31,207 bases of DNA from a virus (Duplodnaviria; Caudoviricetes), in IMG/VR virus record IMGVR_UViG_3300042480_000415, positions 1 to 31,207 of that record. One strand, written 5' to 3'. The first letter of the stretch is position 1. Each line of letters begins with the position of its first letter. Shown piece by piece: positions 9,366-22,299 of the stretch. The notes beneath the pieces were generated by a model. It did not search any database, was not told where the DNA came from, and saw only the letters and a list, made by a program, of their open reading frames with translations. The position numbers and the translations under genes are program-made.

Positions 9366-12300
9366 ATGCGATTCGTACCCATCTCCGAGTTCGAGAAGGA
9401 AGAGCAGAAGGCCTTCCGATTCATCCCGATTGAGGAGGTGGAGTCCGCCAGTACGACTGACTACTCCGACATGGCCACGGCCATGCAGGGGACGCCTACC
9501 GGCGGGCCGCTGATTCGCAGCGTGCTGGACCAGCCCGGCCCCGTGCCGAAGACGCCGGGTTACGACCCGATGCTGAATCAGGGCTATGTGGCCGAAGTCC
9601 GCCGGGACATCATCGGCAAGGCCGCGCCTGAAGACCGCATGGGCCTGCTGACCACGCTGGCCGAGAACCGCACCGATGTGCTGGGCCGTGCCGCTCGCCA
9701 GATCCTGGCCGAGGTGCAGGCAGAGAACAAGCGCATCAACCTCGATCAAGAAGGGCGCGCTCAGCGGCTGCTGGACGCACCGCGTGGCCCCGGCAACCTG
9801 CCGCCCCCGCGCCCGGGTGCAGGCGCAGCGCCGCCACCCGTGCCGGTGCCCGATGTGTCCCCTGGCATCAGCGATGTCATGGACGGGCGCACCGCCAAGC
9901 AGATCGCCGAGCGGCGCATGCTGGCGCAGGGCGTTCGCGTGGCCGATGAGGGCATGCGCGTAGACGAGATCAGTGGCGCTACCAGCCGAATGGCGGAAGC
10001 CGAAGGGCGCCGCAAGTTTGCCGAAGAGAATCCGCTGCTGGGCTCCATTGCCGCCGGCTCCGCGGGCTTGATCAGCGGCGTGATTAACATTCCCTCGGTC
10101 GCCGCAGACGCCTTCAACAAGACCGCCATCAACCCAGTGCTTCGCGCATTGGGAATGCAGGATCTTCCGCCCGTGTCTACGGCATTTGGCACTGAGTACC
10201 TGGCCAAGTCTGCCAGCGACTTCATGCCAAAAGTTGGCAAGCAAGAGATGGACGAGGCCATTGCGCGCCAAGAGTTTGCGCCCTGGCTGATGTCGAAGCT
10301 CGCCGCCAACTCGCCGCAGATCGCGCAGTCTCTGCTGGCTGCGTTTGTGCCCCCGCTGCGCGCAGTGCTGCTGCCAGGCATGGCAGGTACGGCGGCTGGC
10401 CAGAGCTTTGCCCAAGGAGACGACTCTCGCGTGGCGCTCGCCAAGGGTGCGGTGGAGTATGTATCCGAGAAGCTGCCGCTTGGCGTGTTTGACAAGGTCG
10501 GAGACGTGCTCAAGGGGATGTCTCCTGCCAAGGCCAACACGGTGTTGGCGGTGGCTGGCCAGCGCGCTCTGCAGGCCGGCGGTGCAATCACTGCCAACGG
10601 GCTGACCAACGCGATTGAGGAAGTGGCCGCACAGTTCGGTGGCAACGTGCTCGACAAGTACTTCCAAGGCAAGGACATTGAGCTGACCAAGGGCCTGGCC
10701 GAAGCCGGAGTTGTTGGCGGCGTGACGGGCAAGCTGATGAGCGCGCCTCAGGTTGCCGCCGCGGCGACCGGCTACTACGAGCCTGAGCGCCAGATTGCGC
10801 GGGAGATCGACTCGGTTGGGCGTGCGTTTGAGAACCTCGGGCCAGAGGCATCTCGAGCTATCAGCATTGACATGCTGCGCACGGAAGCCGGCACCTCCAA
10901 CCTGATCTCCCCCGCCGCGACCGTCAAGAACTTCACCCCGCCCGACTCGCCGACCAAGCAGGCTGGCCTGGTGGACATCGAGGTGCCGCTGCCAAACGCG
11001 GCTCCTATCCTGCCCGAGATCAACCCGTCGACCGAAGAGCAGTTCGGTCTGGATAAGCTGCGCATGGGAGGCGCGAATGTCGGCACAACAGGCGTACCTG
11101 GAGGACTGGCTGGAGCAGGGGGTGAGGCAGGGGGCGGTCTCATTGACGGAAGCATGGGAGCTGCAGGACCTGGCGATGCAGGTGCCCCCGGGCTCGGAGG
11201 CAGAACTGCCCCAATCCCTGGAGTCAATGATCGACAGGCTGTTCCTCCTGGAGGTGCGCCCGGCCAACAACTTGCCGGCGTAGCTGTAGGCGGTGAACCT
11301 CTGACGTGGACTGGGCGCGCAAAGACTGGCTATGCGAACGAGCAGGACGCCGAGCAGGCGATGGCCACTGCCAGCACGGTCATCGACACCAGGCAGACTC
11401 ACGACTGGCGCGTCGAGCCCATAGGCAATGGGCGCTTTCAGATTGTCGGATACCAAAAGGAGACCAACCTTGGCACGCAAACCCCTCAAGCCCAGCAAGG
11501 CCAAACGCAAGGAGCAACACCAGCAGGCCAAATGGCAGGTGCCGCACAAGGCGGCGCAGGTGGCATCCCAGCAGCAACCGGCACGCCGGTTGAACTGTCT
11601 GATACTGAACGTGCCGGACTGAAGCTTGCGCCGACGGCGCCGCTGCGAGAGCTGAGCTCGCTCAACAAGCAGCTCGATCAGCAGATCGGTGTCACGTTCT
11701 CGCCGGTCAAGTCGACCGACCTGAACGACTCGCAGCGCCTGGCCAGTGCGGTGGCGCGCCTGATGGGCAAGACCCTGACGGTAGTCCACCAGGAGACCGG
11801 TGCAGGCGCGCTGCCCAACGGCATGATCAACACCGTCGGGGGCAAGCACCTGTTTGTCGCTGACGATGCGGACGATGCCCCGCTGGCCATCACTGTGCAT
11901 GAGGCCTACCACGGCCTGCCGGAGGCTCAGCGCAAGAGCCTGAATGCTGCGCTGCTGGATCTGTTCCGCCAGGACCGCAAGGACAAGTTCCTCGACGAGT
12001 TCAGCTACACGCCGGACAAGTTCGAGGAGGAAGCCCCGGCCATGATGGTGCAGGCCATCAGCAAGCGCGAGGACTTCTGGCAGGAGCTGCGCACGAAGAT
12101 GGGCAACAAGGAGTTCGGCGAGGTGGCCAAGACCATCATCGCCAAGCTCGGCGACATCATCACCGGCGCGAAGAAGCAGTACGGCGAAGACTTTGTCAAC
12201 AAGTACATCTCCGACGTCGCGAAGGCTCGCGACCTGTTGACGACCGCCTACGCCGACGCGATGAAGGCGCAGGGCCTGCAGCCCGATGTGCAGCTCGAAG

Positions 12301-15300
12301 GCATGGCCATGGCCTCCGAGCGTTCGCGCATCGGCATGGACTTCAAGGACGTCGTCAAGCGCACGCCCGAGCTCCAGGCTGCGGCCGAGAGGGTCAAGGC
12401 CGGCGAGATGACGGCGGCCGAGTACGACAAGCTCGTCGCTGAGTACAAGCCTGTCGAGCCCTACACCTCGGTGCCTGCGCCGGCCGCCGACGCAGACATC
12501 CGGGCAGCGCTGACCAGCGACAAAGTCGACCGTATCGGTGTGCCGTCGAAGACTCTCAAGGCCGGCGACCCCGTGGGCCTGCGCCTGGACATCCCGGCCT
12601 ACTCCAACCACGGCACCTGGGTGGTGTCAGTGCATGAGCAGCAGGCGGGCTACAACGCGGGCAAGTCGATCGGATACGAGCCGGTCGCCGCTGCCACCAA
12701 CGTCACGTTCGGTGTCGTTGAGAAGGCCGCGCTGAACATCGCGGGCGGCAAGCCCAAGGCGACGATCGCCGTCATCAAGGGCGGATGGAAGCCCACGACG
12801 CCGGCCGAGGCAAAGCTCAAGGCCGACCAGGCGCTGAAGTCCAAGGACTGGGTGCAGGTCGGCATGGACCCCGAGCGGCACAGCTACTTCTACGACCGCT
12901 CCAGCATGGAGCCGGTGACGGCCGCCGACGAGGTCATCCAGATCGGCCCCCTGGTGCTGGCCAAGAACCCGACCTACGGGCAGAAGTCCGAGTTCATGTT
13001 CAGCGGCCGGGCTCGCGAGCCGATCAAGGTCAGCGACTACAACCCGAAGGCCGACAACTTCAACAAGCAGCGAGACATGACCTCGCTGCTGGCTGAAGCG
13101 GTGCCGGCAGAGACCATCGCCGCGGCCGACGGGTTCGTCGAGAAGTACTTCAAGGAGCGGCAGCCAGTCTCCGTTTCGCCGCAGGATCGCCTGCGCGCAG
13201 AGATCTTGCTGAAGCCCAGGATGGAAGCGGCCGAGCAGGCCAAGCCGGAGTACGACCAGAAAATCCTGAACATCGCAGCGCGCACCGGCGCCACCGGCCA
13301 GATGCTGGCGCCCATCAAGGGGCTCAAGCGTGCGGCCGAGAAGCTGGCGCTCGAGGAGAACTACCAGGTCGACAACATCAAGGACCTGCTGCGTTCAACC
13401 ATCGTGGTCGACAGCTACGCCGACGCGCCCGCGATCATCGACGAGATCCGCAAGGAGTTCGACGTGGTCCGCATCAAGGACCGCGCCGGCGTAGGCGTGG
13501 CTGGCGACAAGGTGGAGGCGTCAGACCGTCAGAAGTTCGGCGGCTATGCCGACGTGCTGATCAACATCAGGATGCCCAACGGCACGGTGGGTGAGATCCA
13601 GATCAATACGCCCGCCATGCTGGCCGCCAAGGATGGCCAGGGCCACAAGCTGTACGAGGCCGCCCGTGAGCAGCCTGAGGGTTCACCGCTGCGCGGCGAG
13701 ATCTACGACGCGATGCGTGGTCTTTACGACGCAGCCTTCTCGGCGGCGAACTTGCGGCAGCCCTCGGCGCAGGACAGGAACGCAGCCTCCGACATCGGGG
13801 CGCCGCGTGCCGGCAGCGAGCTGACTGCAACGAGCTCGTCGCCAGAGTCGGCGAGCTTGAAGACCTTGCCGTCAGGAAAGACGACGAACTCGTCGCCGGA
13901 GAACGAGGCAACGAACTCGCAGCCGGGCGGGAAGGAAGAGGGGACTTTCATAGGATCTCCTGACGAGTCGAGTATATCACAACCCTTATACACAAAGCCG
14001 CCTCGGCGGGGCGCCGAAAGGATCGGGAGCTTTGATGTTCGCACCATGAAGGACGGCTCGATTGTCGTCTACGGTGATTCGCAAAACATCAGATCGCAGA
14101 TCCCAGAAGACGTCAAGGGTCGCGTCACCAAGGACGGCTACCTCTTTACCAACGCAGCCGCGCCTCGTGTAAAGGCCGCGCTCGAGGGGCGCAAGACCGC
14201 CTACAGCCGCGGCGGTGCAGTGCTCGACAAGCTGCCGATGAAGGACGGCAAGTACCTGGGCGCGCCCGAGAAGTACAACACCCCTGGAAAGATCGTCGCG
14301 CTGCGCAAGCAACTGCGCATGCTCACGCTGGAGGGGGAGCGCGGCCGCTACTGGTACGAGAACAGCAGCCTGGCGATCTTGCGCATGACTGGCGGCAACG
14401 TGCAGGAGGCGCGCAAGTTCGTGGCCCTGCTGGCCATCTACAGCCCGCAGGCGCGTGTCGACAGCAACTCGACGTTTGCTCTGCGAGCCTGGGCGCAGTA
14501 CAAGGCTGGCCAGCCGATCAGCGTGAAGACCGGAGTGCAGGACAAGAAGGCGACCCAGGCCATGGCCGACGTCGACGCCTTCTGGTCTGGCGAGAAGACA
14601 GGCAACTTCTTCTTCAATCTGTTGCGCGAGATCGACACCAGCACTGCTGGCAAGCAGGGCGCGACGATCGACATGTGGATGATGCGTGCGGCCGAGTACG
14701 CCAACGACGCGCCCACTGCCACGCAGTACGCCTTCATGGAGAACGAGACCAACCGCATTGCGCAGGAAATGGGCTGGGAGCCGCAGCAAGTGCAGGCCGC
14801 CATCTGGGTCGCGATGAAGGCCCGCATGGAGAACAAGGGTGTCAAGCAGAGGACCGAGGCCACCAGCGAGAAGAAGGGCTGGATCAAGTTCGAGCGCGAT
14901 GCGAAGGGCAAGAAGGTCCGCGTGATCATCGACGCACAGAAGCACCGCGACAACTGGCTCAAGCATGCGATGGAGCATGTGCCAACGAAGGAAGACACCG
15001 AGCAGGCCAAGTTCGACTTCGCCGATGGAGTCGGGCGCCACATCGGCCAGCTTTCGTTCGAGGCTCGGCCAGGCCGCAGCACGGGCGTTCTGGATGGGAT
15101 CCACACCGCACCGTATGCCCAGCAGGTGGAGTTCCAGCAGGCCGTGCAGCGTGCGTTCTACGACGAGAACGGCACCGACATGCTGGCTGCACAGCTCGGC
15201 CTGCTGACGGAGCCCAGCGACATCATGCGCCCTGGCGTGTGGCAGGGCGAGGTGTCACCCAGCACGCAGAAGCGCGTGGCAATGGCGCCGGCTGGTGGCG

Positions 15301-18300
15301 ATGCTGGCAAGACCAACGTCGACCCGGCGCAGGCCGAACTGCTCAACGTCTATGCGTCTGTGGCTGGCCTGGTGGCCAGGCAGGAAGGGGTGGGCTGGCA
15401 CCGTCCCTTCTACGCCGGCACGAAGGGGCAGTCCAACGGCCTAGACATCGACATCGGCCGGGCGCTGAACCCAACCGAGACGAAGGACCTCGAGGCGGCG
15501 ATCGGCAAGTGGATGGATGAGAAGAAACACGCCAACTGGCAGAACCAGTTTGCGCTGATCAGCTCGCCCACTGGCATAAGAGTTGTGAATTTCGGTATCA
15601 TCACAAACGCAGTACTCCATTCCGACATCGTGAAGGTCGCGGAAGGTGTGCTGCCAGATGGATCTGTGCGCGTGTTCGCCTCAAGTGGCGACATGCCAAC
15701 TAACGACTGGGAGGCAAACCCCAATGGGCAAACTTACGTACAAAGGATTGGTGCCGCGGGACGATCCGATGTTCTCGACTGGGCCAGAAGTGTTCTCGCG
15801 CCTCGGGTCCAGCGAGTCTTCGAGGACTTCGCCGAAAAGTACCAGTGGGGAGACCCCGGCCGAATCCAGTTCAGCAACCGAGGCGGATCTGATGCAGCCG
15901 GCGGTGGACGCGATAGAGGAGTGGGGCCGCAAGACGTTCAAGCGGTAACCCCTTCCTACGGCACCCCTCGAGAGGGTGCCGCTTCCGCGGTCGCCTACCA
16001 CTACAGCACCCAGCCCCGCACGACCCTCGACAGCGTGATGTATGGCACCGGCCTGCGCGGTGCCGAGATGGCGCGCCTGCAGGGCGCAGATCCGCGCCTG
16101 AAGCAGCGCGTCTACTTCTACATCGATCGCGGCACTGGCATCAATCCTGAGGCCGGCGTGGGCGGCCAGGCCCACCGCGTCAATCTGCAGAACCTGTATG
16201 ACGTCGACGAGGACGCGCTGCGTCTGCGCCGCGACAACGAGGCCTTCAACGACTTCGAGTCTGCGGTCATCGACGCCGGCTTCGACGGCTACATGGTGCG
16301 CGACGCCGGGCCGTCAGGCAACGCGGTGCTGCTGGGTCGGCACGCCGTGCCCGTCGAGCAGCTCGGCGCACGCGGCCGCATGACAGGCGAGCCCGTCGCA
16401 CCGGCCCGCGAGCGAGTGCTGAGCGACGCTGAGAAGATCTCGGCCAACAAGATGCTGCCGGCCGGGCAGGTGTCCGGCAAGCGCTGGGCGGAGCTCATCT
16501 CTCGCGGCATGCCGGAGGTCTACGAGCGCCTGGCTGGCAGCCCGGTGTGGCAGTCCGACAAGGTCATGTACCGCGGCGATCTGGCTCGCGAGCTTCGCGC
16601 TCAGCCGATGTTCAGCAACCGCCAACTGCCGACGGTCTCACCGCAGAGCGCGCTGGACGCGGACATCAAGGTTGCGTCGGAGAGCCTGCAGCGCTACATC
16701 CGGGCTGCGGAGCAGGGGCGCCAGTTGCCCAAGCTCACGATCGGCCGCCTGCCCCATGTGCTCAACATGCTGGGCGCACGCACGCAGGATTTCGACATCG
16801 CCACCAGCATTGTCAAGAAGGTGTTTGTCAGGACCAAAGCAGAAAAAGGACACGCGGACGAGCTGCCCGACATCACGCCCAAGCAGCTCATCGAGGGCAT
16901 CTACCGCCCGGCCATGGTGCTGAAGTCGAAGGACGGCAACCCTCGCGAGTTCGAGCTGGTGCTGCCCATCACCAACGACAAGGGCGCGGTGATCGTCCCG
17001 ATCAAGGTGTCGGTGGACAAGACCGATCCGACCGGCGCGGTGATGTCGATCTACGCCAAGGGCGTGTCGATCTCCGGCGGCAAGCCGAACGAGCAGGTGC
17101 TGATGAAACGCATCAACGACGGCAACCTGCTGTACCTGGACCCCGGCCTGGCCAAGCAGGCGCTGACTGGTCGCAAGGCTGGAGATCCTAAGGCTGACGT
17201 CAAGCTCAATGGCAACTTCGTGTCTTGGCCTGGGGTGTGGCCCAAGCTGGCGGAGATGATCTCTGCGCGCACGGTCAAGACCGACATCAACCTAATGGGC
17301 TGGATCGGCAAATACTACACGCCGAGCTCGTCGCCGCAGGGCTGGGAGGATGCGCCCGCATTCAGCCGTCGTGCTCAGACCGAGACGCCCGAATTCAAGC
17401 GCTGGTTCGGCAACAGCAAGGTGCTTGAGAAGCCAGGAAGGACTATTGATCAGGCCCGCGCCTTGGAGATTGCAAGTCTCAAGCGCGAGATGGATTCCTT
17501 GCCGTATGCCGAAAACGAGCTGAAGGACTATGGGGAGCGGTTCAAGGAGGACCCCGATCGCGCCGGCTGGTGGGGGCCCAAGATCGAGAAGCAAAAGTCT
17601 TTGATTGCCTCATTGAAAATAGAGAACGAGAAGGCGCGCGAAAGGATCGCCGAGCTTGAGTCGGGTGGAACGCCAACCAAGTTCCCCTTCAGCGATGGGT
17701 CGAAGAAGCCAAAGGTGATGTACCACGCCACCGACAACCCGCTCGAGGGTGGCGTGTTCAGAATCGGAGTTGGCGGAGCGATCTATGTGTCACCCGACCC
17801 CGATGCGGCCGAGGACATTGCCAAGCCCAAGATCTTCGGCAAGCGCTTCCCTGGTGTGCCGTTCTCGCCAGATCTGATGGGGGGACCTGACCTCTTCCAG
17901 GGGCTCAACGTCATCCCCGTCTACGTCAAGGCAGAGAACCCATTCGACTACGAAATCAAGGAGCACAGGCAGGCTCTTGCCGATCACCTCAAGAGCATTG
18001 GCTTTAAGCCGCCCAGTGCCGTGCAATTGGCCGAGGACGCACCAGACGAGGCGTCTGGTGCAAGCGACATCCTCGAGATGATCCACGCCGGCGACTACCG
18101 CGTGATCGAGAGCCCAGAGGCGATTGAGTGGATCAAGAAGAACAACTTCGACGGGTTCTACGTTCAGGAGCTTCAGGAGGACGAAGAGATAAAGAACCTC
18201 GGCGTCTTCTCATCGAACCAGATTAAGTCCGCCATCGGCAACATCGGTACGTTCGATCCGGCCAACCCGGACATCCGCTTCAGCCAGCGCGCCCGCGCTG

Positions 18301-18485
18301 AGGACAAGGAAGTGGCCAGCCTGTTCCGCGATCTGCAAGATGCCCGCGGCCTTGGGCGCGTGCGTGCGCTCGAGCGGGTTGACGCGCACCCGATGGCTGA
18401 GACAATCCGCCGCATCGACCAAGAGTTCATGAACATCCTGGAGCGGCTTGACGACGCCGGCCTGGTGAAGATCAACTGCAAGTGA
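9366..18485 (+). CDS. Large polyvalent (multi-effector) internal virion protein, 3039 aa
   Basis: Single 9.1-kb ORF with several recognisable catalytic motifs (listed as domain features); architecture matches described phage polyvalent proteins. Confidence 0.9.
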   Translation: MRFVPISEFEKEEQKAFRFIPIEEVESASTTDYSDMATAMQGTPTGGPLIRSVLDQPGPVPKTPGYDPMLNQGYVAEVRRDIIGKAAPEDRMGLLTTLAENRTDVLGRAARQILAEVQAENKRINLDQEGRAQRLLDAPRGPGNLPPPRPGAGAAPPPVPVPDVSPGISDVMDGRTAKQIAERRMLAQGVRVADEGMRVDEISGATSRMAEAEGRRKFAEENPLLGSIAAGSAGLISGVINIPSVAADAFNKTAINPVLRALGMQDLPPVSTAFGTEYLAKSASDFMPKVGKQEMDEAIARQEFAPWLMSKLAANSPQIAQSLLAAFVPPLRAVLLPGMAGTAAGQSFAQGDDSRVALAKGAVEYVSEKLPLGVFDKVGDVLKGMSPAKANTVLAVAGQRALQAGGAITANGLTNAIEEVAAQFGGNVLDKYFQGKDIELTKGLAEAGVVGGVTGKLMSAPQVAAAATGYYEPERQIAREIDSVGRAFENLGPEASRAISIDMLRTEAGTSNLISPAATVKNFTPPDSPTKQAGLVDIEVPLPNAAPILPEINPSTEEQFGLDKLRMGGANVGTTGVPGGLAGAGGEAGGGLIDGSMGAAGPGDAGAPGLGGRTAPIPGVNDRQAVPPGGAPGQQLAGVAVGGEPLTWTGRAKTGYANEQDAEQAMATASTVIDTRQTHDWRVEPIGNGRFQIVGYQKETNLGTQTPQAQQGQTQGATPAGQMAGAAQGGAGGIPAATGTPVELSDTERAGLKLAPTAPLRELSSLNKQLDQQIGVTFSPVKSTDLNDSQRLASAVARLMGKTLTVVHQETGAGALPNGMINTVGGKHLFVADDADDAPLAITVHEAYHGLPEAQRKSLNAALLDLFRQDRKDKFLDEFSYTPDKFEEEAPAMMVQAISKREDFWQELRTKMGNKEFGEVAKTIIAKLGDIITGAKKQYGEDFVNKYISDVAKARDLLTTAYADAMKAQGLQPDVQLEGMAMASERSRIGMDFKDVVKRTPELQAAAERVKAGEMTAAEYDKLVAEYKPVEPYTSVPAPAADADIRAALTSDKVDRIGVPSKTLKAGDPVGLRLDIPAYSNHGTWVVSVHEQQAGYNAGKSIGYEPVAAATNVTFGVVEKAALNIAGGKPKATIAVIKGGWKPTTPAEAKLKADQALKSKDWVQVGMDPERHSYFYDRSSMEPVTAADEVIQIGPLVLAKNPTYGQKSEFMFSGRAREPIKVSDYNPKADNFNKQRDMTSLLAEAVPAETIAAADGFVEKYFKERQPVSVSPQDRLRAEILLKPRMEAAEQAKPEYDQKILNIAARTGATGQMLAPIKGLKRAAEKLALEENYQVDNIKDLLRSTIVVDSYADAPAIIDEIRKEFDVVRIKDRAGVGVAGDKVEASDRQKFGGYADVLINIRMPNGTVGEIQINTPAMLAAKDGQGHKLYEAAREQPEGSPLRGEIYDAMRGLYDAAFSAANLRQPSAQDRNAASDIGAPRAGSELTATSSSPESASLKTLPSGKTTNSSPENEATNSQPGGKEEGTFIGSPDESSISQPLYTKPPRRGAERIGSFDVRTMKDGSIVVYGDSQNIRSQIPEDVKGRVTKDGYLFTNAAAPRVKAALEGRKTAYSRGGAVLDKLPMKDGKYLGAPEKYNTPGKIVALRKQLRMLTLEGERGRYWYENSSLAILRMTGGNVQEARKFVALLAIYSPQARVDSNSTFALRAWAQYKAGQPISVKTGVQDKKATQAMADVDAFWSGEKTGNFFFNLLREIDTSTAGKQGATIDMWMMRAAEYANDAPTATQYAFMENETNRIAQEMGWEPQQVQAAIWVAMKARMENKGVKQRTEATSEKKGWIKFERDAKGKKVRVIIDAQKHRDNWLKHAMEHVPTKEDTEQAKFDFADGVGRHIGQLSFEARPGRSTGVLDGIHTAPYAQQVEFQQAVQRAFYDENGTDMLAAQLGLLTEPSDIMRPGVWQGEVSPSTQKRVAMAPAGGDAGKTNVDPAQAELLNVYASVAGLVARQEGVGWHRPFYAGTKGQSNGLDIDIGRALNPTETKDLEAAIGKWMDEKKHANWQNQFALISSPTGIRVVNFGIITNAVLHSDIVKVAEGVLPDGSVRVFASSGDMPTNDWEANPNGQTYVQRIGAAGRSDVLDWARSVLAPRVQRVFEDFAEKYQWGDPGRIQFSNRGGSDAAGGGRDRGVGPQDVQAVTPSYGTPREGAASAVAYHYSTQPRTTLDSVMYGTGLRGAEMARLQGADPRLKQRVYFYIDRGTGINPEAGVGGQAHRVNLQNLYDVDEDALRLRRDNEAFNDFESAVIDAGFDGYMVRDAGPSGNAVLLGRHAVPVEQLGARGRMTGEPVAPARERVLSDAEKISANKMLPAGQVSGKRWAELISRGMPEVYERLAGSPVWQSDKVMYRGDLARELRAQPMFSNRQLPTVSPQSALDADIKVASESLQRYIRAAEQGRQLPKLTIGRLPHVLNMLGARTQDFDIATSIVKKVFVRTKAEKGHADELPDITPKQLIEGIYRPAMVLKSKDGNPREFELVLPITNDKGAVIVPIKVSVDKTDPTGAVMSIYAKGVSISGGKPNEQVLMKRINDGNLLYLDPGLAKQALTGRKAGDPKADVKLNGNFVSWPGVWPKLAEMISARTVKTDINLMGWIGKYYTPSSSPQGWEDAPAFSRRAQTETPEFKRWFGNSKVLEKPGRTIDQARALEIASLKREMDSLPYAENELKDYGERFKEDPDRAGWWGPKIEKQKSLIASLKIENEKARERIAELESGGTPTKFPFSDGSKKPKVMYHATDNPLEGGVFRIGVGGAIYVSPDPDAAEDIAKPKIFGKRFPGVPFSPDLMGGPDLFQGLNVIPVYVKAENPFDYEIKEHRQALADHLKSIGFKPPSAVQLAEDAPDEASGASDILEMIHAGDYRVIESPEAIEWIKKNNFDGFYVQELQEDEEIKNLGVFSSNQIKSAIGNIGTFDPANPDIRFSQRARAEDKEVASLFRDLQDARGLGRVRALERVDAHPMAETIRRIDQEFMNILERLDDAGLVKINCK
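11077..11283 (+). CDS. Nested +1-frame small acidic protein (68 aa) within polyvalent ORF
   Basis: GGAGG at 11067-11071, ATG 11077. Codons CTG/GAG/GAC/CAG are genome-typical, while the host frame here is a GGA/GCA-coded Gly-rich linker. Confidence 0.6.
   Translation: MSAQQAYLEDWLEQGVRQGAVSLTEAWELQDLAMQVPPGSEAELPQSLESMIDRLFLLEVRPANNLPA
11470..11622 (+). CDS. Possible nested +1-frame basic peptide (50 aa, TTG start; MARKPLKPSKAKRK...)
   Basis: AAGGAG at 11457-11462, 7 nt before TTG; host frame is a low-complexity Q/G/T linker. Confidence 0.35.
   Translation: MARKPLKPSKAKRKEQHQQAKWQVPHKAAQVASQQQPARRLNCLILNVPD
11640..12290 (+). other. Zincin-like metallopeptidase (MPTase-type) domain
   Basis: LPNGMINT...LFVADD...AITVHEAYH (11898-11912) and downstream FEEEAPA; boundaries approximate. 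Confidence 0.7.
13230..13740 (+). other. RelA/SpoT-like nucleotidyltransferase domain
   Basis: IKGLKRAAEK / IKDLLRSTIVV / GGYADVLINI / GEIQINT / GHKLYE, ordered like the synthetase motifs but diverged; boundaries approximate. Confidence 0.8.
13724..13951 (-). CDS. Nested antisense small protein (75 aa), candidate immunity/antitoxin for the RelA/SpoT-like domain
   Basis: Minus strand AGGAGA-TCCT-ATG; MKVPSSFPPGCEFVASFSGDEFVVFPDGKVFKL... globular-looking; sense frame here is an S/T-rich linker; own promoter-like element. Function is inference. Confidence 0.6.
   Translation of the reverse strand: MKVPSSFPPGCEFVASFSGDEFVVFPDGKVFKLADSGDELVAVSSLPARGAPMSEAAFLSCAEGCRKFAAEKAAS
13971..13979 (-). promoter_or_regulatory. 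Extended -10 element (TGATATACT) upstream of the nested antisense gene
   Basis: TGn-TATACT in an AT-rich island ~20 nt upstream of ATG 13951; the same 9-mer occurs in the 29405-29432 promoter. Confidence 0.55.
14340..14830 (+). other. HhH-GPD / Ogg-like DNA glycosylase-type domain
   Basis: YWYE...LLAIYSPQ...SGEKTGNFFFNL...ATIDMWMMR...PQQVQAAIW; Lys (14595) and Asp (14670) sit as in the GxK..F..N...IDxH motif of Ogg-type enzymes. Confidence 0.55.
15724..15948 (+). CDS. Possible nested +1-frame protein (74 aa; MGKLTYKGLVPRDDPMFSTGPEVF...)
   Basis: GGAGG at 15710-15714; host-frame codons become atypical here (GTA CAA AGG ATT, GGA CGA); AT-rich patch at 15575-15620 upstream. Confidence 0.4.
   Translation: MGKLTYKGLVPRDDPMFSTGPEVFSRLGSSESSRTSPKSTSGETPAESSSATEADLMQPAVDAIEEWGRKTFKR
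15990..16350 (+). other. ADP-ribosyltransferase-like domain 1
   Basis: AYHYS...YGTG...RVYFY...NLYD...AGFDGY pattern parallels the other ART-like domains in the window. Confidence 0.55.
16730..17140 (+). other. MuF-C / PBECR-like (predicted RNase-fold) domain
   Basis: IGRLPHVLNMLG...KGH...KQLIEGIYRPAMVLKS...VIVPIKV...VMSIYAK. Confidence 0.6.
17376..18285 (+). other. ART-PolyVal-like ADP-ribosyltransferase domain 2 (with coiled-coil insertion)
   Basis: ETPEFKRWFGNSKV...PKVMYHAT...IYVSPD...VIPVYVKAENPFD...FDGFYV...VFSSNQIKSAIGNIGTFDPANPDIRFS. Confidence 0.8.
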
Positions 18486-18494
18486 GGTATCACA

Positions 18495-18986
18495 ATGCCT
18501 GTTTCCAACCTTCTCGACAAGCCCACCGAGGACATGCTGAACAAGGCTGTCCACGCCGAGCTCTACGCCTCGCACTTGTACCGCCATGTGTCCAACCAGA
18601 TGCAGCGCGTCGGGTTCTTCGGCACGCAGAAGTTCTTCGCTGGCGAGAGCGCTGACGAGCTGAAGCACTACCAGCTCATCGCCGACTACATGAACGACCG
18701 CGGCACCAGCGCGAAGGTGCCGGCGCTCGAGGCCTGCACTGAGGTGGTCACCGACATCGTCGACGCCATTGAGCTGGGCTACGAGACCGAGCTGCAGCTC
18801 ATGCGCGACTACGAGAAGTGGTATCGCGAGTGCAAGTGCGTGACGACCCAGCAGTTCATGCTGCAGTTCCTCGAGACCCAGCGCAAGAGCGTGGGCGAGT
18901 ACGGCGACCTGATGTCACGCCTGGGCCTGGTAAGCGGCGACAAGGCGGGCATGCTGATGATGGACCAGGAGCTGGGCAATGGCTGA
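18495..18986 (+). CDS. Ferritin-like protein (non-haem ferritin family)
   Basis: GAGGT RBS; AELYASHLY, FF..ESADELKH...YMNDRG, YETEL, TQQFMLQFLETQ; 163 aa, ferritin length and ferroxidase ligand spacing. Confidence 0.85.
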   Translation: MPVSNLLDKPTEDMLNKAVHAELYASHLYRHVSNQMQRVGFFGTQKFFAGESADELKHYQLIADYMNDRGTSAKVPALEACTEVVTDIVDAIELGYETELQLMRDYEKWYRECKCVTTQQFMLQFLETQRKSVGEYGDLMSRLGLVSGDKAGMLMMDQELGNG

Positions 18987-21900
18987 TTGCACCTACACGT
19001 TCAAGACTGCGGAGGGCGAGGTCACCATCAAGGGGATGGCCGAGATGAAGGCCTTCCTCGCCTTGAACGGTGTGGGTGCTATTGATGGCGCCAAGGCGCC
19101 TATGTTCAGCCAGCGCGCTTTTCACGGTACGCCGCACCGTGGCATCAACAAGTTCAGCACCGACAAGATCGGCACCGGCGAGGGAGCCCAGGCCTACGGC
19201 TGGGGGCTGTACTTCGCCGACAAGCGAGAGATCGCGGAGCACTACCGCAAGGTTCTGCAGGGCGGCCCGCTTGGGTTGAAAGTGCAAGGGGCTGCCACCC
19301 GGGCGCTGGGCGTTGAGTACGACGAAGCCGCATCTTCGTCGCAGTTCATTGATGGGGTGCGCAATGTCGCCGGCAACGGCGAGGATGCGGTGCGCGAAGC
19401 CATCATCAAGACCGCAGACAGGATGTCGCGATCGCAGTGGCCCGGCGACAAGCGTTTGGCTGAGCGTGTGCGGGCGCTTGCGGACAACACCGCTGTCGTG
19501 AAGGCCGTCAACAAAGAAGCCGCTGGCCAACTCTACGAGGTTGAAATCCCTGAGGACAGCGAGATGCTGCTGTGGGACAAGCCACTGAGCGAGCAGTCGG
19601 AGGCGGTGCGGGCGGCCGTTGACAAGCTATTTGAAAACGGGGCACTGGACGACGGCTCCAAAAAGCTCATTGAGTCGCAAGGCATGCGCCAAGATTTGAA
19701 GGGCAAGACCCTTTACGAACTGCTCGCGACATCAGACAACTTGGCCATCGACGGCACGGGCCGCGCCGCCAGCCTGGCGCTGGCCGAAGCGGGCATCAAG
19801 GGTATCAAGTATCTTGACGGCACCAGTCGCGACGCAGGCGGTGGCAGCTACAACTATGTGGTGTTCAGCGGCGACGATGTGGCAATTCAGCAAGCCTTTT
19901 ACAGCAAGCGCGCCAAGCAGTCCTGGTTCCTCGGCCGCGACGACCTGGGCAACTTCACCTTCGGCGCCGGCGCGAAGGCCTACCGCTACGCGGCGGACAT
20001 GGCCAACCTGGTGTTGGACAAGATGGCGCTCAAGCCCATCAGCACCGACCTGTCGCGGGCCATGCGGAAGATGAAGATGGAGATCTCCAAGGCTCAGGAG
20101 CTGACGGTGGACGTGGCCACCAAGCTGCAGGAGCTGCCGCAGCAAGAGCGCGAGATGATCAGCGACGTCATCGAAGGCGAGCTCAAGCGTGGCGCCAAGC
20201 CGCCCAAGCGGGTGCTCGAGCTGGCGGCCAGCATGCAGGCCATCATGTCCGAGCAGACCGCCGAGCTGGTGCGCCTGGGCATGCTGACAAAGGACGCGGC
20301 CGGCCGGTGGGACGGCAAGTACCTGCCGCGCTTCTACGAGTCCAAGCTGAAGAGCGAGGCCAACGGGTGGGTCAAGGCGGCCAAGGCGTTGCTCGGCCGC
20401 AAGAAGACCATGCAGGGCATCGGCGGCTCCAGCCTGAAGGGTCGGGGTCTGTTTCAGACCATACCCGTTGAAGACCTCGAGGCCTGGCTTGCCGAGGGAT
20501 GGGAGGAACGCGACCCCGACTTTGACCCCGACACCGACACTGAGATCACGGTCTGGCGCGACTACACCCGCCAGGAGCGCGACGACATGGGCGAGATTCG
20601 GGACTCCATGTTCCGGTTCGTCATGGGCTACAGCAAGAGCCAGCGTGACATCTCGCTGGGCCGGCTGTACGAGAACATCGCCAGCACCGTAGCCAGCAAG
20701 AAGGAGAAGCCTGGTTTCGTGCAGGTGCCGCGCACCAACATCGAGGACACCTATGCCAAGCGGTACGGCAAGCTTGCCGGCATGTGGGTTCCCCAAGAGG
20801 TGCTGGACCACCTGACCGCTTTCGATGACTCGATGCAGAGCGAGGTGCTGAAGATGTACCTCAAGGGCATGAGCATGTGGAAGGAGGGCAAGACCGTGCT
20901 GAACCCGGTCAGCCACGCCAACAACATCATGTCCAACGTGACCATGGCGCACTTCGCTGGCGTTTCCTACTGGGACGCTCACAAGTATGTGGCCACCACG
21001 CGCGACATCATGAAGAACGCGCCGATGCTGCAGGAGGCGAAGGACGCCGGCCTGTGGCTGGGCACCATGACCCAGGCCGAGATGACCGACCTCCTGCCTG
21101 ACCAGCTCAAGGTGCTGGCCGCCAAGACAGAGAGCAAGTCGGGCCAGGCGGTGGAAGGCGTGTGGAACGCGCTGTCGTTCTGGCTGCGCAAGCCTATGGG
21201 CAAGGCCTACGAGGCCGAGGACCTGTTCTTCCGCTACCTGATCTACCGCGATGCGCGCACGAAGGGGCTGACCCCAGATGAGTCCGTCGACTACGCCCAG
21301 AAGTTCATCTTCACCTACGACGACCTGCCGAAGAACGCCAGGCGCATCCGCGACTTCGCCCTGCCGTTCTTCGCCTACACCTACAAGGCGATCCCGGCGA
21401 TGGCCGAGACGGCGCTGACACACCCATGGCGGTATGCCGCCCCGGCAGCAGCCCTGTACACGATCAACGCGGCCATGTACGCGATCGCTGCGGGGGCGGG
21501 TGAGGACGAGGAGTGGTGGGAGCTGATCAAGCGGCGCTTCACTGACGAGGACTTCGCGGCCCAGGCCAAGGCCCTGGAGGCGGACGAGCGCAAGAACCTT
21601 CCCGAGTGGATGAAGGGCGCCAGCCTGACGCTGGGGACCTACAAGTCCATCCGCCTCGGGATGGACGAGGCGACAAACCTGCCCGTGTTCCTGGACGTCA
21701 GCCGGATCTTCCCGGGCGGCGACCTGTTCGACGCGGTCAACAACGCGGGCGGCGTGCCGCTGATCGCACCGCTCACTCCGAACAACCCGATCCTGACAAC
21801 GGCCTACGCCATGCTGGCCAACAAGGACACGTTCCGAGGCAAGGACATTGTGACCCCGGCCGACACCGACGCGGAGGCCGCAGCCAAGCGCGCCGACTGG

Positions 21901-22299
21901 GCGTGGAAGCAGTTCACCCCAGCGGTCGCGGTGGGTAACGCCCACTTCGAGCGGGCGATGAACGTGATCGCCAACCAGATGGGCAAGCCGCTGGACCTTG
22001 GCATCGCCGAGTACACCGGCGTGGACAAGCAGGGTCAGCCGGTGTCGCTTGCCTACTCTGCCATGCAGACCGTCGGCATCAAGGCCAGGCCCATCGACCT
22101 AGAGCTGTCAGAGAAGATCCGGCAGTCGCAGGAGAACAAGCTCATCCGAGACATCGAGGCCAGCATGCGCAGCATTCGCCGCCTGGAGCAGAAGGGTGCG
22201 ATCAGCTCCGAAAATGCCGAGCGCCAGATCGAGCTGCAGCAGGAAAAGAGAGACCGGCTCAGGGCCGGTCTCACGGTGGAAGGCGAGGAGCGGGACTGA
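18979..22299 (+). CDS. Second large internal virion protein: N-terminal ART-like domain plus helical ejection-protein-like C-terminal region
   Basis: AGGAG RBS; AFHGTPH...IGTGEGAQAYGWGLYF...LYEVEIP...GIKGIKYLD...NYVVF, then NPVSHANNIMSN...FTYDDLP...PFFAYTYK and a hydrophobic segment. Confidence 0.85.
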   Translation: MADCTYTFKTAEGEVTIKGMAEMKAFLALNGVGAIDGAKAPMFSQRAFHGTPHRGINKFSTDKIGTGEGAQAYGWGLYFADKREIAEHYRKVLQGGPLGLKVQGAATRALGVEYDEAASSSQFIDGVRNVAGNGEDAVREAIIKTADRMSRSQWPGDKRLAERVRALADNTAVVKAVNKEAAGQLYEVEIPEDSEMLLWDKPLSEQSEAVRAAVDKLFENGALDDGSKKLIESQGMRQDLKGKTLYELLATSDNLAIDGTGRAASLALAEAGIKGIKYLDGTSRDAGGGSYNYVVFSGDDVAIQQAFYSKRAKQSWFLGRDDLGNFTFGAGAKAYRYAADMANLVLDKMALKPISTDLSRAMRKMKMEISKAQELTVDVATKLQELPQQEREMISDVIEGELKRGAKPPKRVLELAASMQAIMSEQTAELVRLGMLTKDAAGRWDGKYLPRFYESKLKSEANGWVKAAKALLGRKKTMQGIGGSSLKGRGLFQTIPVEDLEAWLAEGWEERDPDFDPDTDTEITVWRDYTRQERDDMGEIRDSMFRFVMGYSKSQRDISLGRLYENIASTVASKKEKPGFVQVPRTNIEDTYAKRYGKLAGMWVPQEVLDHLTAFDDSMQSEVLKMYLKGMSMWKEGKTVLNPVSHANNIMSNVTMAHFAGVSYWDAHKYVATTRDIMKNAPMLQEAKDAGLWLGTMTQAEMTDLLPDQLKVLAAKTESKSGQAVEGVWNALSFWLRKPMGKAYEAEDLFFRYLIYRDARTKGLTPDESVDYAQKFIFTYDDLPKNARRIRDFALPFFAYTYKAIPAMAETALTHPWRYAAPAAALYTINAAMYAIAAGAGEDEEWWELIKRRFTDEDFAAQAKALEADERKNLPEWMKGASLTLGTYKSIRLGMDEATNLPVFLDVSRIFPGGDLFDAVNNAGGVPLIAPLTPNNPILTTAYAMLANKDTFRGKDIVTPADTDAEAAAKRADWAWKQFTPAVAVGNAHFERAMNVIANQMGKPLDLGIAEYTGVDKQGQPVSLAYSAMQTVGIKARPIDLELSEKIRQSQENKLIRDIEASMRSIRRLEQKGAISSENAERQIELQQEKRDRLRAGLTVEGEERD

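What the first reader, a model, noticed from the sequence alone, without database searches (positions are those of the whole stretch)
11067..11283. +1-frame overprinted 68-aa gene in a Gly-rich linker of the giant ORF
Seen: perfect GGAGG and ATG. The alternative frame reads as an acidic amphipathic helical protein with genome-typical codons (CTG GAG GAC TGG CTG GAG CAG), while the main frame degenerates into GGA/GCA/CCT-coded Gly/Ala/Pro. Inference: the nested frame is the selected one, possibly an inhibitor or chaperone of a neighbouring domain such as the zincin. Gene callers would miss it.
Basis: partly seen in the sequence, partly recalled or inferred. Interest (0 to 1): 0.72.

Follow-up and report, generated by a model that had tools for sequence, protein, structure and literature searches.

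The report
Conserved gene inside phage ejection gene
A small gene, written in a shifted reading frame inside a phage's giant DNA-injection protein gene, is kept intact in many related phages and likely makes a separate helper protein of a so far undescribed family.

Summary
The nested gene is real by every sequence test available. Window 11077-11283 has GGAGG, 5 nt, ATG, 68 codons and TAG in the +1 frame of a 3039-aa polyvalent ejection-protein gene. Its codon adaptation beats the host frame's (0.58 vs 0.26). All 37 related loci examined keep ATG, an SD-like motif, 61-68 codons and an open host frame. Selection acts on the nested frame (omega 0.36 vs 1.54; better conserved than the host frame in 12 of 12 pairs). 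Homologues are nested in three cultured phages; BA3 annotates one as hypothetical BA3_0004. The product is a predicted three-helix protein with no family or fold match.

The zincin-inhibitor idea is weak: four distant hosts have no nearby zincin motif. The N-terminal host domain also swaps freely. Best guess (0.45): a late, non-enzymatic helper for making or packaging the ejection proteins. Translation is not shown. The same gene holds three more hidden ORFs; one antisense ORF tracks the RelA/SpoT domain in 10 of 10 loci. This scan noted nested genes in DarB-like genes of at least 16 other genomes, but not this family.

The parts
9366..18485 (+). Host gene: 3039-aa phage polyvalent / internal-virion (ejection) protein, last of a run of likely ejection-protein genes
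   Evidence: Pfam: DUF7178 aa1658-1819, ART-PolyVal aa2781-2963; below cut-off: MuF_C, Phage_L5_gp82, RelA_SpoT aa1318-1429. HEAYH zincin motif. The equivalent gene BA3_0002 is listed as a T7 IVP-D homologue in PMC4819975.
10929..10988 (+). Host-frame 20-aa motif (FT-x9-GL, then aliphatic residues and Pro) just upstream of the nested gene; conserved as peptide, function unknown
   Evidence: Present in 25 of 25 environmental loci examined, 73-172 nt before the nested ATG; third codon positions vary in 18 of 19 columns. Not recognisable in the Vibrio phage hosts and at most faint in L044.
11067..11071 (+). Shine-Dalgarno GGAGG of the nested gene, 5 nt before ATG
   Evidence: Sequence. SD-like motif 4-12 nt before the ATG in 38 of 38 loci including the window: GGAGG 17, GGAG 11, GGGG 9, GAGG 1.
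11077..11283 (+). Nested +1-frame gene, 68 aa, acidic and Leu/Trp-rich, predicted three-helix protein of an undescribed family
11470..11622 (+). Second nested +1 ORF (TTG start, AAGGAG), 50-aa basic peptide with a conserved N-terminal KP[LI]KPSK motif; likely real
   Evidence: Family of 20 among 25 hosts scanned; motif in the +1 frame in 23 of 24 loci; pN/pS 0.53 nested vs 0.99 host over codons 2-15.
11898..11912 (+). HEAYH zincin (MPTase) motif of the host protein, 274 codons after the nested start
13724..13951 (-). Antisense nested ORF, 75 aa, AGGAG 5 nt before ATG, just downstream of the RelA/SpoT-like domain; candidate antidote
   Evidence: Present with ATG and GGAG in 10 of 10 loci that carry the RelA/SpoT region, absent from the other 15 of 25; pN/pS 0.47 antisense vs 0.58 sense over 40 codons, so both frames are constrained.
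15724..15948 (+). Third nested +1 ORF (GGAGG, ATG), 74 aa; probably real
   Evidence: Family of 9 including the window; tblastn hits in 10 of 23 loci; CAI only modestly above host (0.49 vs 0.42).

Best explanation
This is a conserved gene in the +1 frame of a podophage's giant ejection-protein gene, likely translated from its own ribosome-binding site on the same late mRNA, and its predicted three-helix product likely acts in the infected cell as a non-enzymatic helper for making or packaging the ejection proteins. Shown: own SD and start, fixed length, purifying selection on the nested frame, an always-open host frame, and a constant position in the first linker after the N-terminal region of the giant protein (host codon about 470-660 in hosts with a complete N-terminus). 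Inferred: translation, late timing, cytoplasmic location and the helper role. The host linker only has to stay free of stops; its Gly/Ala/Val richness follows from the G/C-rich third positions of the nested gene. The partner is not identified. It is probably neither the zincin nor one particular N-terminal domain variant.
For: 38 of 38 loci (37 related plus the window, 30 distinct) have ATG, an SD-like motif and an open host frame; lengths 61-68 aa, 31 of 38 exactly 68; all three stop codons are used. All-pairs omega 0.36 nested vs 1.54 host over 17 distinct sequences. In 12 of 12 disjoint pairs the nested protein is better conserved; 188 of 364 changes are silent in the nested frame vs 79 in the host frame. 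25 clusters of 66-75 aa at 34-57% identity among 26 hits. Profile A2, built without them, hits nested ORFs of VvAW1 (42.8 bits), vB_ValP_FGH (37.5), BA3 (40.9) and L044 (53.8). The position stays fixed while downstream payloads change completely: ART, Zeta, PBECR5, DarB methylase-helicase, LPD38. That points to the core ejection module rather than one payload. T7 has a non-structural assembly protein in its IVP operon (PMC4819975 passage). In the same genes other nested ORFs directly follow a Zeta-toxin domain (6 of 6) or the RelA/SpoT region (10 of 10), so nested ORFs here can be tied to the host protein.
Against: No direct evidence of translation or function. The N-terminal host domain is exchanged independently of the nested gene: 24 of 36 locus pairs with nested identity of 85% or more have N-terminal identity under 35%; Spearman 0.24 vs 0.52 for the downstream region, which is physically closer. 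The conserved upstream host motif is not recognisable in the distant hosts. A profile of the N-terminal regions placed none of L040, L041 or L044 above threshold, so a shared N-terminal domain across all hosts is not shown. The start region is more structured than other starts. Fixed position could be simple inheritance.
Confidence: 0.45

Rival explanations
1. A real gene whose product acts on a conserved bacterial target (host takeover, counter-defence or exclusion of competing phages) and merely uses an unconstrained linker as coding space.
For: The nested protein stays 85-100% identical while the upstream host domain is swapped, and persists where zincin, upstream motif and second nested peptide are all missing. 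Both termini and the length are conserved, as expected for one fixed partner.
Against: Never found outside this linker in 37 related loci, whereas host-takeover genes usually move about and sit in early regions (general knowledge). No sigma-70 promoter-like site in 10500-11700, so expression should follow the late operon.
Confidence: 0.33
2. A specific inhibitor or chaperone of the zincin (MPTase) domain 274 codons downstream, holding back self-processing until packaging or injection.
For: A nearby HExxH in 23 of 25 hosts and in L043. PMC5512222 proposes autoproteolytic processing by these MPTases. Nested identity follows the downstream region better than the upstream one.
Against: No nearby HExxH in L044, VvAW1, vB_ValP_FGH or BA3. 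L033, L035 and L036 carry HExxH regions with no tblastn match to the window's zincin, yet keep the nested gene at 49-54% identity. The close loci share one ancestry, so the 23 are not independent.
Confidence: 0.1
3. The +1 frame is reached by programmed frameshifting, giving a short form of the ejection protein (N-terminal domain capped by the 68 residues) rather than a free protein.
For: Constant position right after the N-terminal region; SD-like sequences can stimulate frameshifts (recalled). In the window the +1 frame is open for 57 codons before the ATG.
Against: ATG with an SD at initiation spacing is kept in 38 of 38 loci although the upstream DNA differs; conservation starts at the Met; no shared slippery site is visible upstream.
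Confidence: 0.06
4. A small structural or co-ejected virion protein.
For: Lies in the virion ejection operon; conserved length.
Against: No match to solved virion proteins by sequence or fold; acidic, with no obvious DNA-binding character.
Confidence: 0.05
5. Not a gene: a by-product of a Gly-rich linker.
For: The +1 frame stays open in about 11% of codon resamplings of this linker; no expression data.
Against: Silent-change bias, conserved start, SD and stop position, and homologues under host linkers of quite different composition (Glu/Gln/Arg-rich in the Vibrio phages).
Confidence: 0.01

Closest known systems
Embedded phage genes of the lambda Rz1-in-Rz type
   Same: Small gene wholly inside a larger one, same strand, +1 frame, own ribosome-binding site, missed by annotation.
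   Different: Host gene is a 2200-3600-aa ejection protein, not a spanin; the nested product has no lipoprotein signal; several nested ORFs per host gene; partnership with the host protein is not shown.
Phage polyvalent proteins (Iyer et al. 2017, PMC5512222; passages read by term search)
   Same: The host gene has the MPTase motif, ART-PolyVal, MuF-C and RelA/SpoT-like domains in one polypeptide among late genes.
   Different: The paper's main text has 0 hits for 'overlap' and 'linker', and its two 'nested' hits concern a hairpin fold; no nested genes appear in the passages seen. Supplements were not read.
Thalassomonas phage BA3 BA3_0004 (YP_001552273.1), hypothetical protein
   Same: Homologue (40.9 bits), +1 frame inside BA3_0002 at host codon 471. 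The best BFVD fold hit (A8HNW3, 110 aa, TM 0.72, rmsd 1.8, E 0.065) has the same length and is probably this protein (inferred; the tool gave no name).
   Different: Annotated as 110 aa from an upstream start, whereas homology begins about 47 codons later (63 aa); no function assigned; no paper found under its identifiers.
TnpV-like and other genes nested in DarB-like phage genes
   Same: Same layout: SD-led +1 ORFs in linkers of giant injected proteins.
   Different: Different protein family: no TnpV match for any of 42 members, no look-alike in the scan's index; the window's host gene has no methylase-helicase.
T7 IVP-A (non-structural assembly protein of the internal-virion operon; PMC4819975 passage)
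   Same: Proposed role: needed for building ejection proteins into virions without being part of them.
   Different: IVP-A is a separate upstream gene; no similarity to the 68-aa protein was tested or found. This is a functional analogy only.

Membership tests
Embedded out-of-frame phage gene (Rz1-type layout) | Wholly inside another ORF, same strand, different frame | tested here: met
   38 of 38 loci.
Embedded out-of-frame phage gene (Rz1-type layout) | Own SD and start codon, conserved in relatives | tested here: met
   ATG 38 of 38, SD-like motif 38 of 38 (9 of them only GGGG).
Embedded out-of-frame phage gene (Rz1-type layout) | Purifying selection on the nested frame | tested here: met
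Embedded out-of-frame phage gene (Rz1-type layout) | Protein shown to be made | not testable with these tools
   Needs ribosome profiling or proteomics.
Embedded out-of-frame phage gene (Rz1-type layout) | Product works together with the host-frame protein | tested here: inconclusive
   Position fixed, but neighbouring domains vary independently.
Spanin Rz1 itself | Lipoprotein signal with lipobox Cys, host gene an inner-membrane spanin | tested here: not met
   No Cys and no signal-like N-terminus in the 68-aa sequence; host is a 3039-aa polyvalent protein.
Phage polyvalent protein (host gene) | Several conflict domains in one polypeptide (MPTase, ART, MuF-C, RelA/SpoT) | tested here: met
   ART-PolyVal and DUF7178 above cut-off; MuF_C and RelA_SpoT below; HEAYH.
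Phage polyvalent protein (host gene) | Located among late virion genes | tested here: met
   Tail-fibre and acetyltransferase genes upstream; in VvAW1 and BA3 the host gene follows head, tail and 'DNA ejection' genes.
Phage polyvalent protein (host gene) | Packaged and injected with the DNA | not testable with these tools
   Inferred from context and from PMC4819975 listing BA3_0002 as an IVP-D homologue.
Cognate zincin inhibitor | Always accompanies the zincin domain | tested here: not met
   Four distant hosts lack a nearby HExxH.
Cognate zincin inhibitor | Binds and inhibits the protease | not testable with these tools
   Needs a biochemical assay.
TnpV (PF14198)-like nested genes | Match to the Pfam TnpV profile | tested here: not met
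   0 of 42 members match it at E <= 1.
Any solved protein fold | Clear structural match | tested here: inconclusive
   Foldseek PDB no E <= 0.001; VIA-align best Z 3.9, rmsd 4.7, 58 aligned.

The most novel reading that the evidence does not exclude
Giant podophage ejection genes carry a second, hidden layer of genes: linkers encode separately translated safety or assembly partners that travel with the domains they follow (a +1 ORF after every Zeta-toxin domain, an antisense ORF after every RelA/SpoT region), and the 68-aa gene is the ancient core member that lets the phage build a toxic multi-enzyme virion protein without killing its host early.
Probability: 0.3. Interest if true: 0.85.

Novelty: new variant of a known kind. 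Interest (0 to 1): 0.66.

Why it matters
Polyvalent virion proteins carry domains predicted to be toxic (ADP-ribosyltransferase, RelA/SpoT, Zeta, proteases). How the phage makes and packages them safely is open, and their low-complexity linkers are usually read as mere spacers. Here a linker is a conserved gene of an unannotated family that reaches from freshwater phages to cultured Vibrio and Thalassomonas phages. The window's single giant ORF probably hides four genes. This corrects annotation, explains the odd linker composition, gives a natural example of long-lived dual coding where the large gene's frame is the passenger, and is directly testable in three cultured phages.

Tried and rejected
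Complex prediction of the 68-aa protein with host aa 515-984 (upstream motif, linker, small W-GR domain, zincin): no answer, score 0.00 in two runs, controls not folded; no evidence either way.

Sequencing runs: no RNA holder was listed.

Family searches found nothing: Pfam (only scattered weak hits, at most 2 of 42 members), PHROGs 0 of 42, NCBIfam, PDB sequences, ESM Atlas twice. Fold searches found no clear PDB match; absence does not show a new fold. A recalled resemblance to UPF0175-like helix motifs got no Pfam support.

A search for longer or fused forms found none among 8000 candidates, which is weak evidence. The genome-contig scan gave only L042, a false hit that profile A2 does not recognise; it was left out of all counts. 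P0029 (1235 aa) is an unrelated repeat protein and was dropped. L001-L007 are shorter-flank copies of contigs fetched again among L008-L015 and were not counted twice. tblastn of P0027 and P0041 against cultured phages found nothing, nor did the antisense ORF. No sigma-70 promoter or terminator was found in 10500-11700.

My own first idea, a specific partner of the N-terminal domain, was weakened by domain swapping.

Nine literature searches listed no paper on nested genes in polyvalent, DarB-like or IVP-D genes; the library lacks most subscription papers.

Full report
Observation. The window is a whole 31.2-kb phage contig. ORF 9366-18485 encodes 3039 aa. Inside it, GGAGG (11067-11071) is followed after 5 nt by ATG at 11077, and the +1 frame runs 68 codons to TAG at 11283. 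With codon weights trained on other parts of the genome, the nested frame has CAI 0.58 and GC3 0.87, and the host frame over the same bases has CAI 0.26 and GC3 0.40; the host gene as a whole has GC3 0.81. When the host peptide is held fixed and its codons resampled, the +1 frame stays open in 2140 of 20000 trials, but the full layout of SD, ATG, open frame and stop at codon 69 appears in 1 of 20000 (19 of 20000 with uniform codon use). The description is accurate.

Conservation. A protein search found 13 relatives, 12 of them 68 aa long, down to 64% identity. The exhaustive search gave 26 hits, 25 of 66-75 aa at 34-57% identity, and one unrelated long protein that I dropped. I fetched DNA for 34 environmental loci and three cultured phages; one further hit, L042, was false. 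In 38 of 38 loci including the window (30 distinct sequences) the gene starts with ATG, has an SD-like motif 4-12 nt upstream (GGAGG 17, GGAG 11, GGGG 9, GAGG 1), is 61-68 aa long, ends in TAG, TGA or TAA (16, 13, 9), and lies under an open host frame. Host frames exceed 2000 codons wherever the fetched DNA is long enough. No stand-alone copy was seen.

Which frame is selected. Over 17 distinct sequences the nested third position is the most variable (57 of 68 columns) and the nested second position, which is the host's third, the least (31 of 68). All-pairs omega is 0.36 for the nested frame, 1.54 for the host frame and 0.80 for the third frame. In 12 disjoint pairs that I chose, the nested protein is more conserved than the host peptide every time; 188 of 364 nucleotide differences are silent in the nested frame and 79 in the host frame. 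These counts are not phylogenetically corrected, but the pairs share no member. The host linker is Gly/Ala-rich in GC-rich phages and Glu/Gln/Arg-rich in the Vibrio phages, so its composition follows the nested gene.

Cultured phages. tblastn found a weak hit under the DarB-like gene of Vibrio phage VvAW1 (E 5e-3), then in vB_ValP_FGH and Thalassomonas phage BA3. Profile A2, which contains none of them, scores them at 42.8, 37.5 and 40.9 bits. All three are +1-nested at about host codon 470-560. VvAW1 and FGH do not annotate the gene; BA3 annotates it as hypothetical BA3_0004 with a start that is probably 47 codons too early. The top viral fold hit is a 110-aa protein (TM 0.72, rmsd 1.8, E 0.065), probably BA3_0004 itself (inferred from length).

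The host gene. Pfam gives ART-PolyVal and DUF7178 above cut-off, and MuF_C, Phage_L5_gp82 and RelA_SpoT below it; a HEAYH motif lies at aa 845. This fits the polyvalent proteins of PMC5512222, of which I read term-search passages only. PMC4819975 (passages) lists BA3_0002, the host of the BA3 homologue, as a T7 IVP-D homologue and describes IVP-A as a non-structural assembly protein. PMC3558961 (passages) has no mention of overlap or nesting in VvAW1. Other papers were seen as search listings only, and no supplements were read; Rz/Rz1 is recalled.

The product. It has 11 acidic and 3 basic residues. AlphaFold2 on 42 sequences gives three helices (10-17, 23-35, 46-58), pLDDT 86. There is no match in Pfam, PHROGs, NCBIfam or PDB sequences and no clear fold match. 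The invariant residues in the alignment are Met, Ala and Leu, with Trp, Asp, Pro and Leu nearly invariant; this suggests a binding protein and not an enzyme (inference).

What it partners. The zincin idea fits close relatives (HExxH 263-399 codons downstream in 23 of 25 hosts) but fails in L044, VvAW1, FGH and BA3. The upstream domain is no better: 24 of 36 pairs with nested identity of 85% or more have N-terminal regions under 35% identical, and a profile of those regions did not detect the distant hosts. A 20-aa host-frame motif just upstream is present in 25 of 25 environmental loci examined and is conserved as peptide, but is not recognisable in the Vibrio hosts. What never changes is the position: the first linker of the giant ejection protein, whatever payload follows. 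No sigma-70-like promoter lies nearby, so expression probably follows the late operon. I therefore favour a general helper for producing or packaging the ejection proteins (0.45), with a host-directed small protein using free coding space as the close rival (0.33). The gene itself I hold real at about 0.97. One result against strong independent initiation is a start region more structured than six other starts.

More hidden genes. A scan of 25 host genes for SD-led out-of-frame ORFs whose codon adaptation beats the host's returned only +1-frame ORFs, in six clusters; the filter missed some known members, such as L016 and L019. The window has two more: 11470-11622, a basic 50-aa peptide whose motif is in 23 of 24 loci, and 15724-15948. 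An antisense ORF, 13951-13724, with AGGAG and ATG follows the RelA/SpoT region in 10 of 10 loci that have the region and in none of the other 15; a +1 ORF follows the Zeta-toxin domain in 6 of 6 loci. These domain-tracking ORFs have the gene order of toxin-immunity pairs. That reading is untested, and the loci are related to each other.

Novelty. Embedded phage genes are a known kind. Nine searches of the held literature listed no account of nested genes in polyvalent, DarB-like or IVP-D genes. This scan has unchecked notes of the same layout in DarB-like genes of at least 16 other genomes, none with this sequence or this genome. Verdict: a real, deeply conserved nested gene of an undescribed family; new variant of a known kind; interest 0.66.

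Noticed in passing
window 13724-13951 (-): Antisense 75-aa ORF with AGGAG and ATG directly after the RelA/SpoT-like domain; present in 10 of 10 loci with that domain and absent from the other 15; candidate antidote. No Pfam, NCBIfam or cultured-phage match.
   Followed up: partly
window 11470-11622 (+): Second +1 nested ORF, TTG start with AAGGAG, basic 50-aa peptide; N-terminal motif kept in 23 of 24 loci, C-terminus variable.
   Followed up: partly
window 15724-15948 (+): Third +1 nested ORF, 74 aa; in L012 and L026 the same C-terminal half is joined to a different N-terminal half.
   Followed up: partly
L016:12443, L020:5958, L031:9987, L032:12960 and the equivalent places in L018 and L019: A roughly 60-aa +1 ORF starts at the end of the Zeta-toxin domain in 6 of 6 loci that carry one.
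   Followed up: partly
L040:12502-12831 (Vibrio phage VvAW1): A second unannotated +1 nested ORF (109 aa, AGGAG) before the methylase domain; no Pfam hit.
   Followed up: partly
window 10929-10988: Host-frame 20-aa motif conserved in 25 of 25 environmental loci at the point where the N-terminal domain is swapped; possible docking, cleavage or recombination site.
   Followed up: partly
window 9966-10865: [quoted passage not shown]
   Followed up: partly
window 9366-18485 and 18979-22299: Short [MF]FS-x-R-like motifs recur at domain boundaries of both large proteins (seen); possibly processing sites.
   Followed up: no
window 18495-18986: A ferritin-like gene sits between two polyvalent genes and is kept in that region in several relatives.
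   Followed up: no
window 15486-15850: A dip in host-frame GC3 starts about 240 nt before the third nested ORF and is not explained by it.
   Followed up: no
L044:9219 and L043:1929, 7080: Further SD-led +1 ORFs in distant hosts.
   Followed up: no
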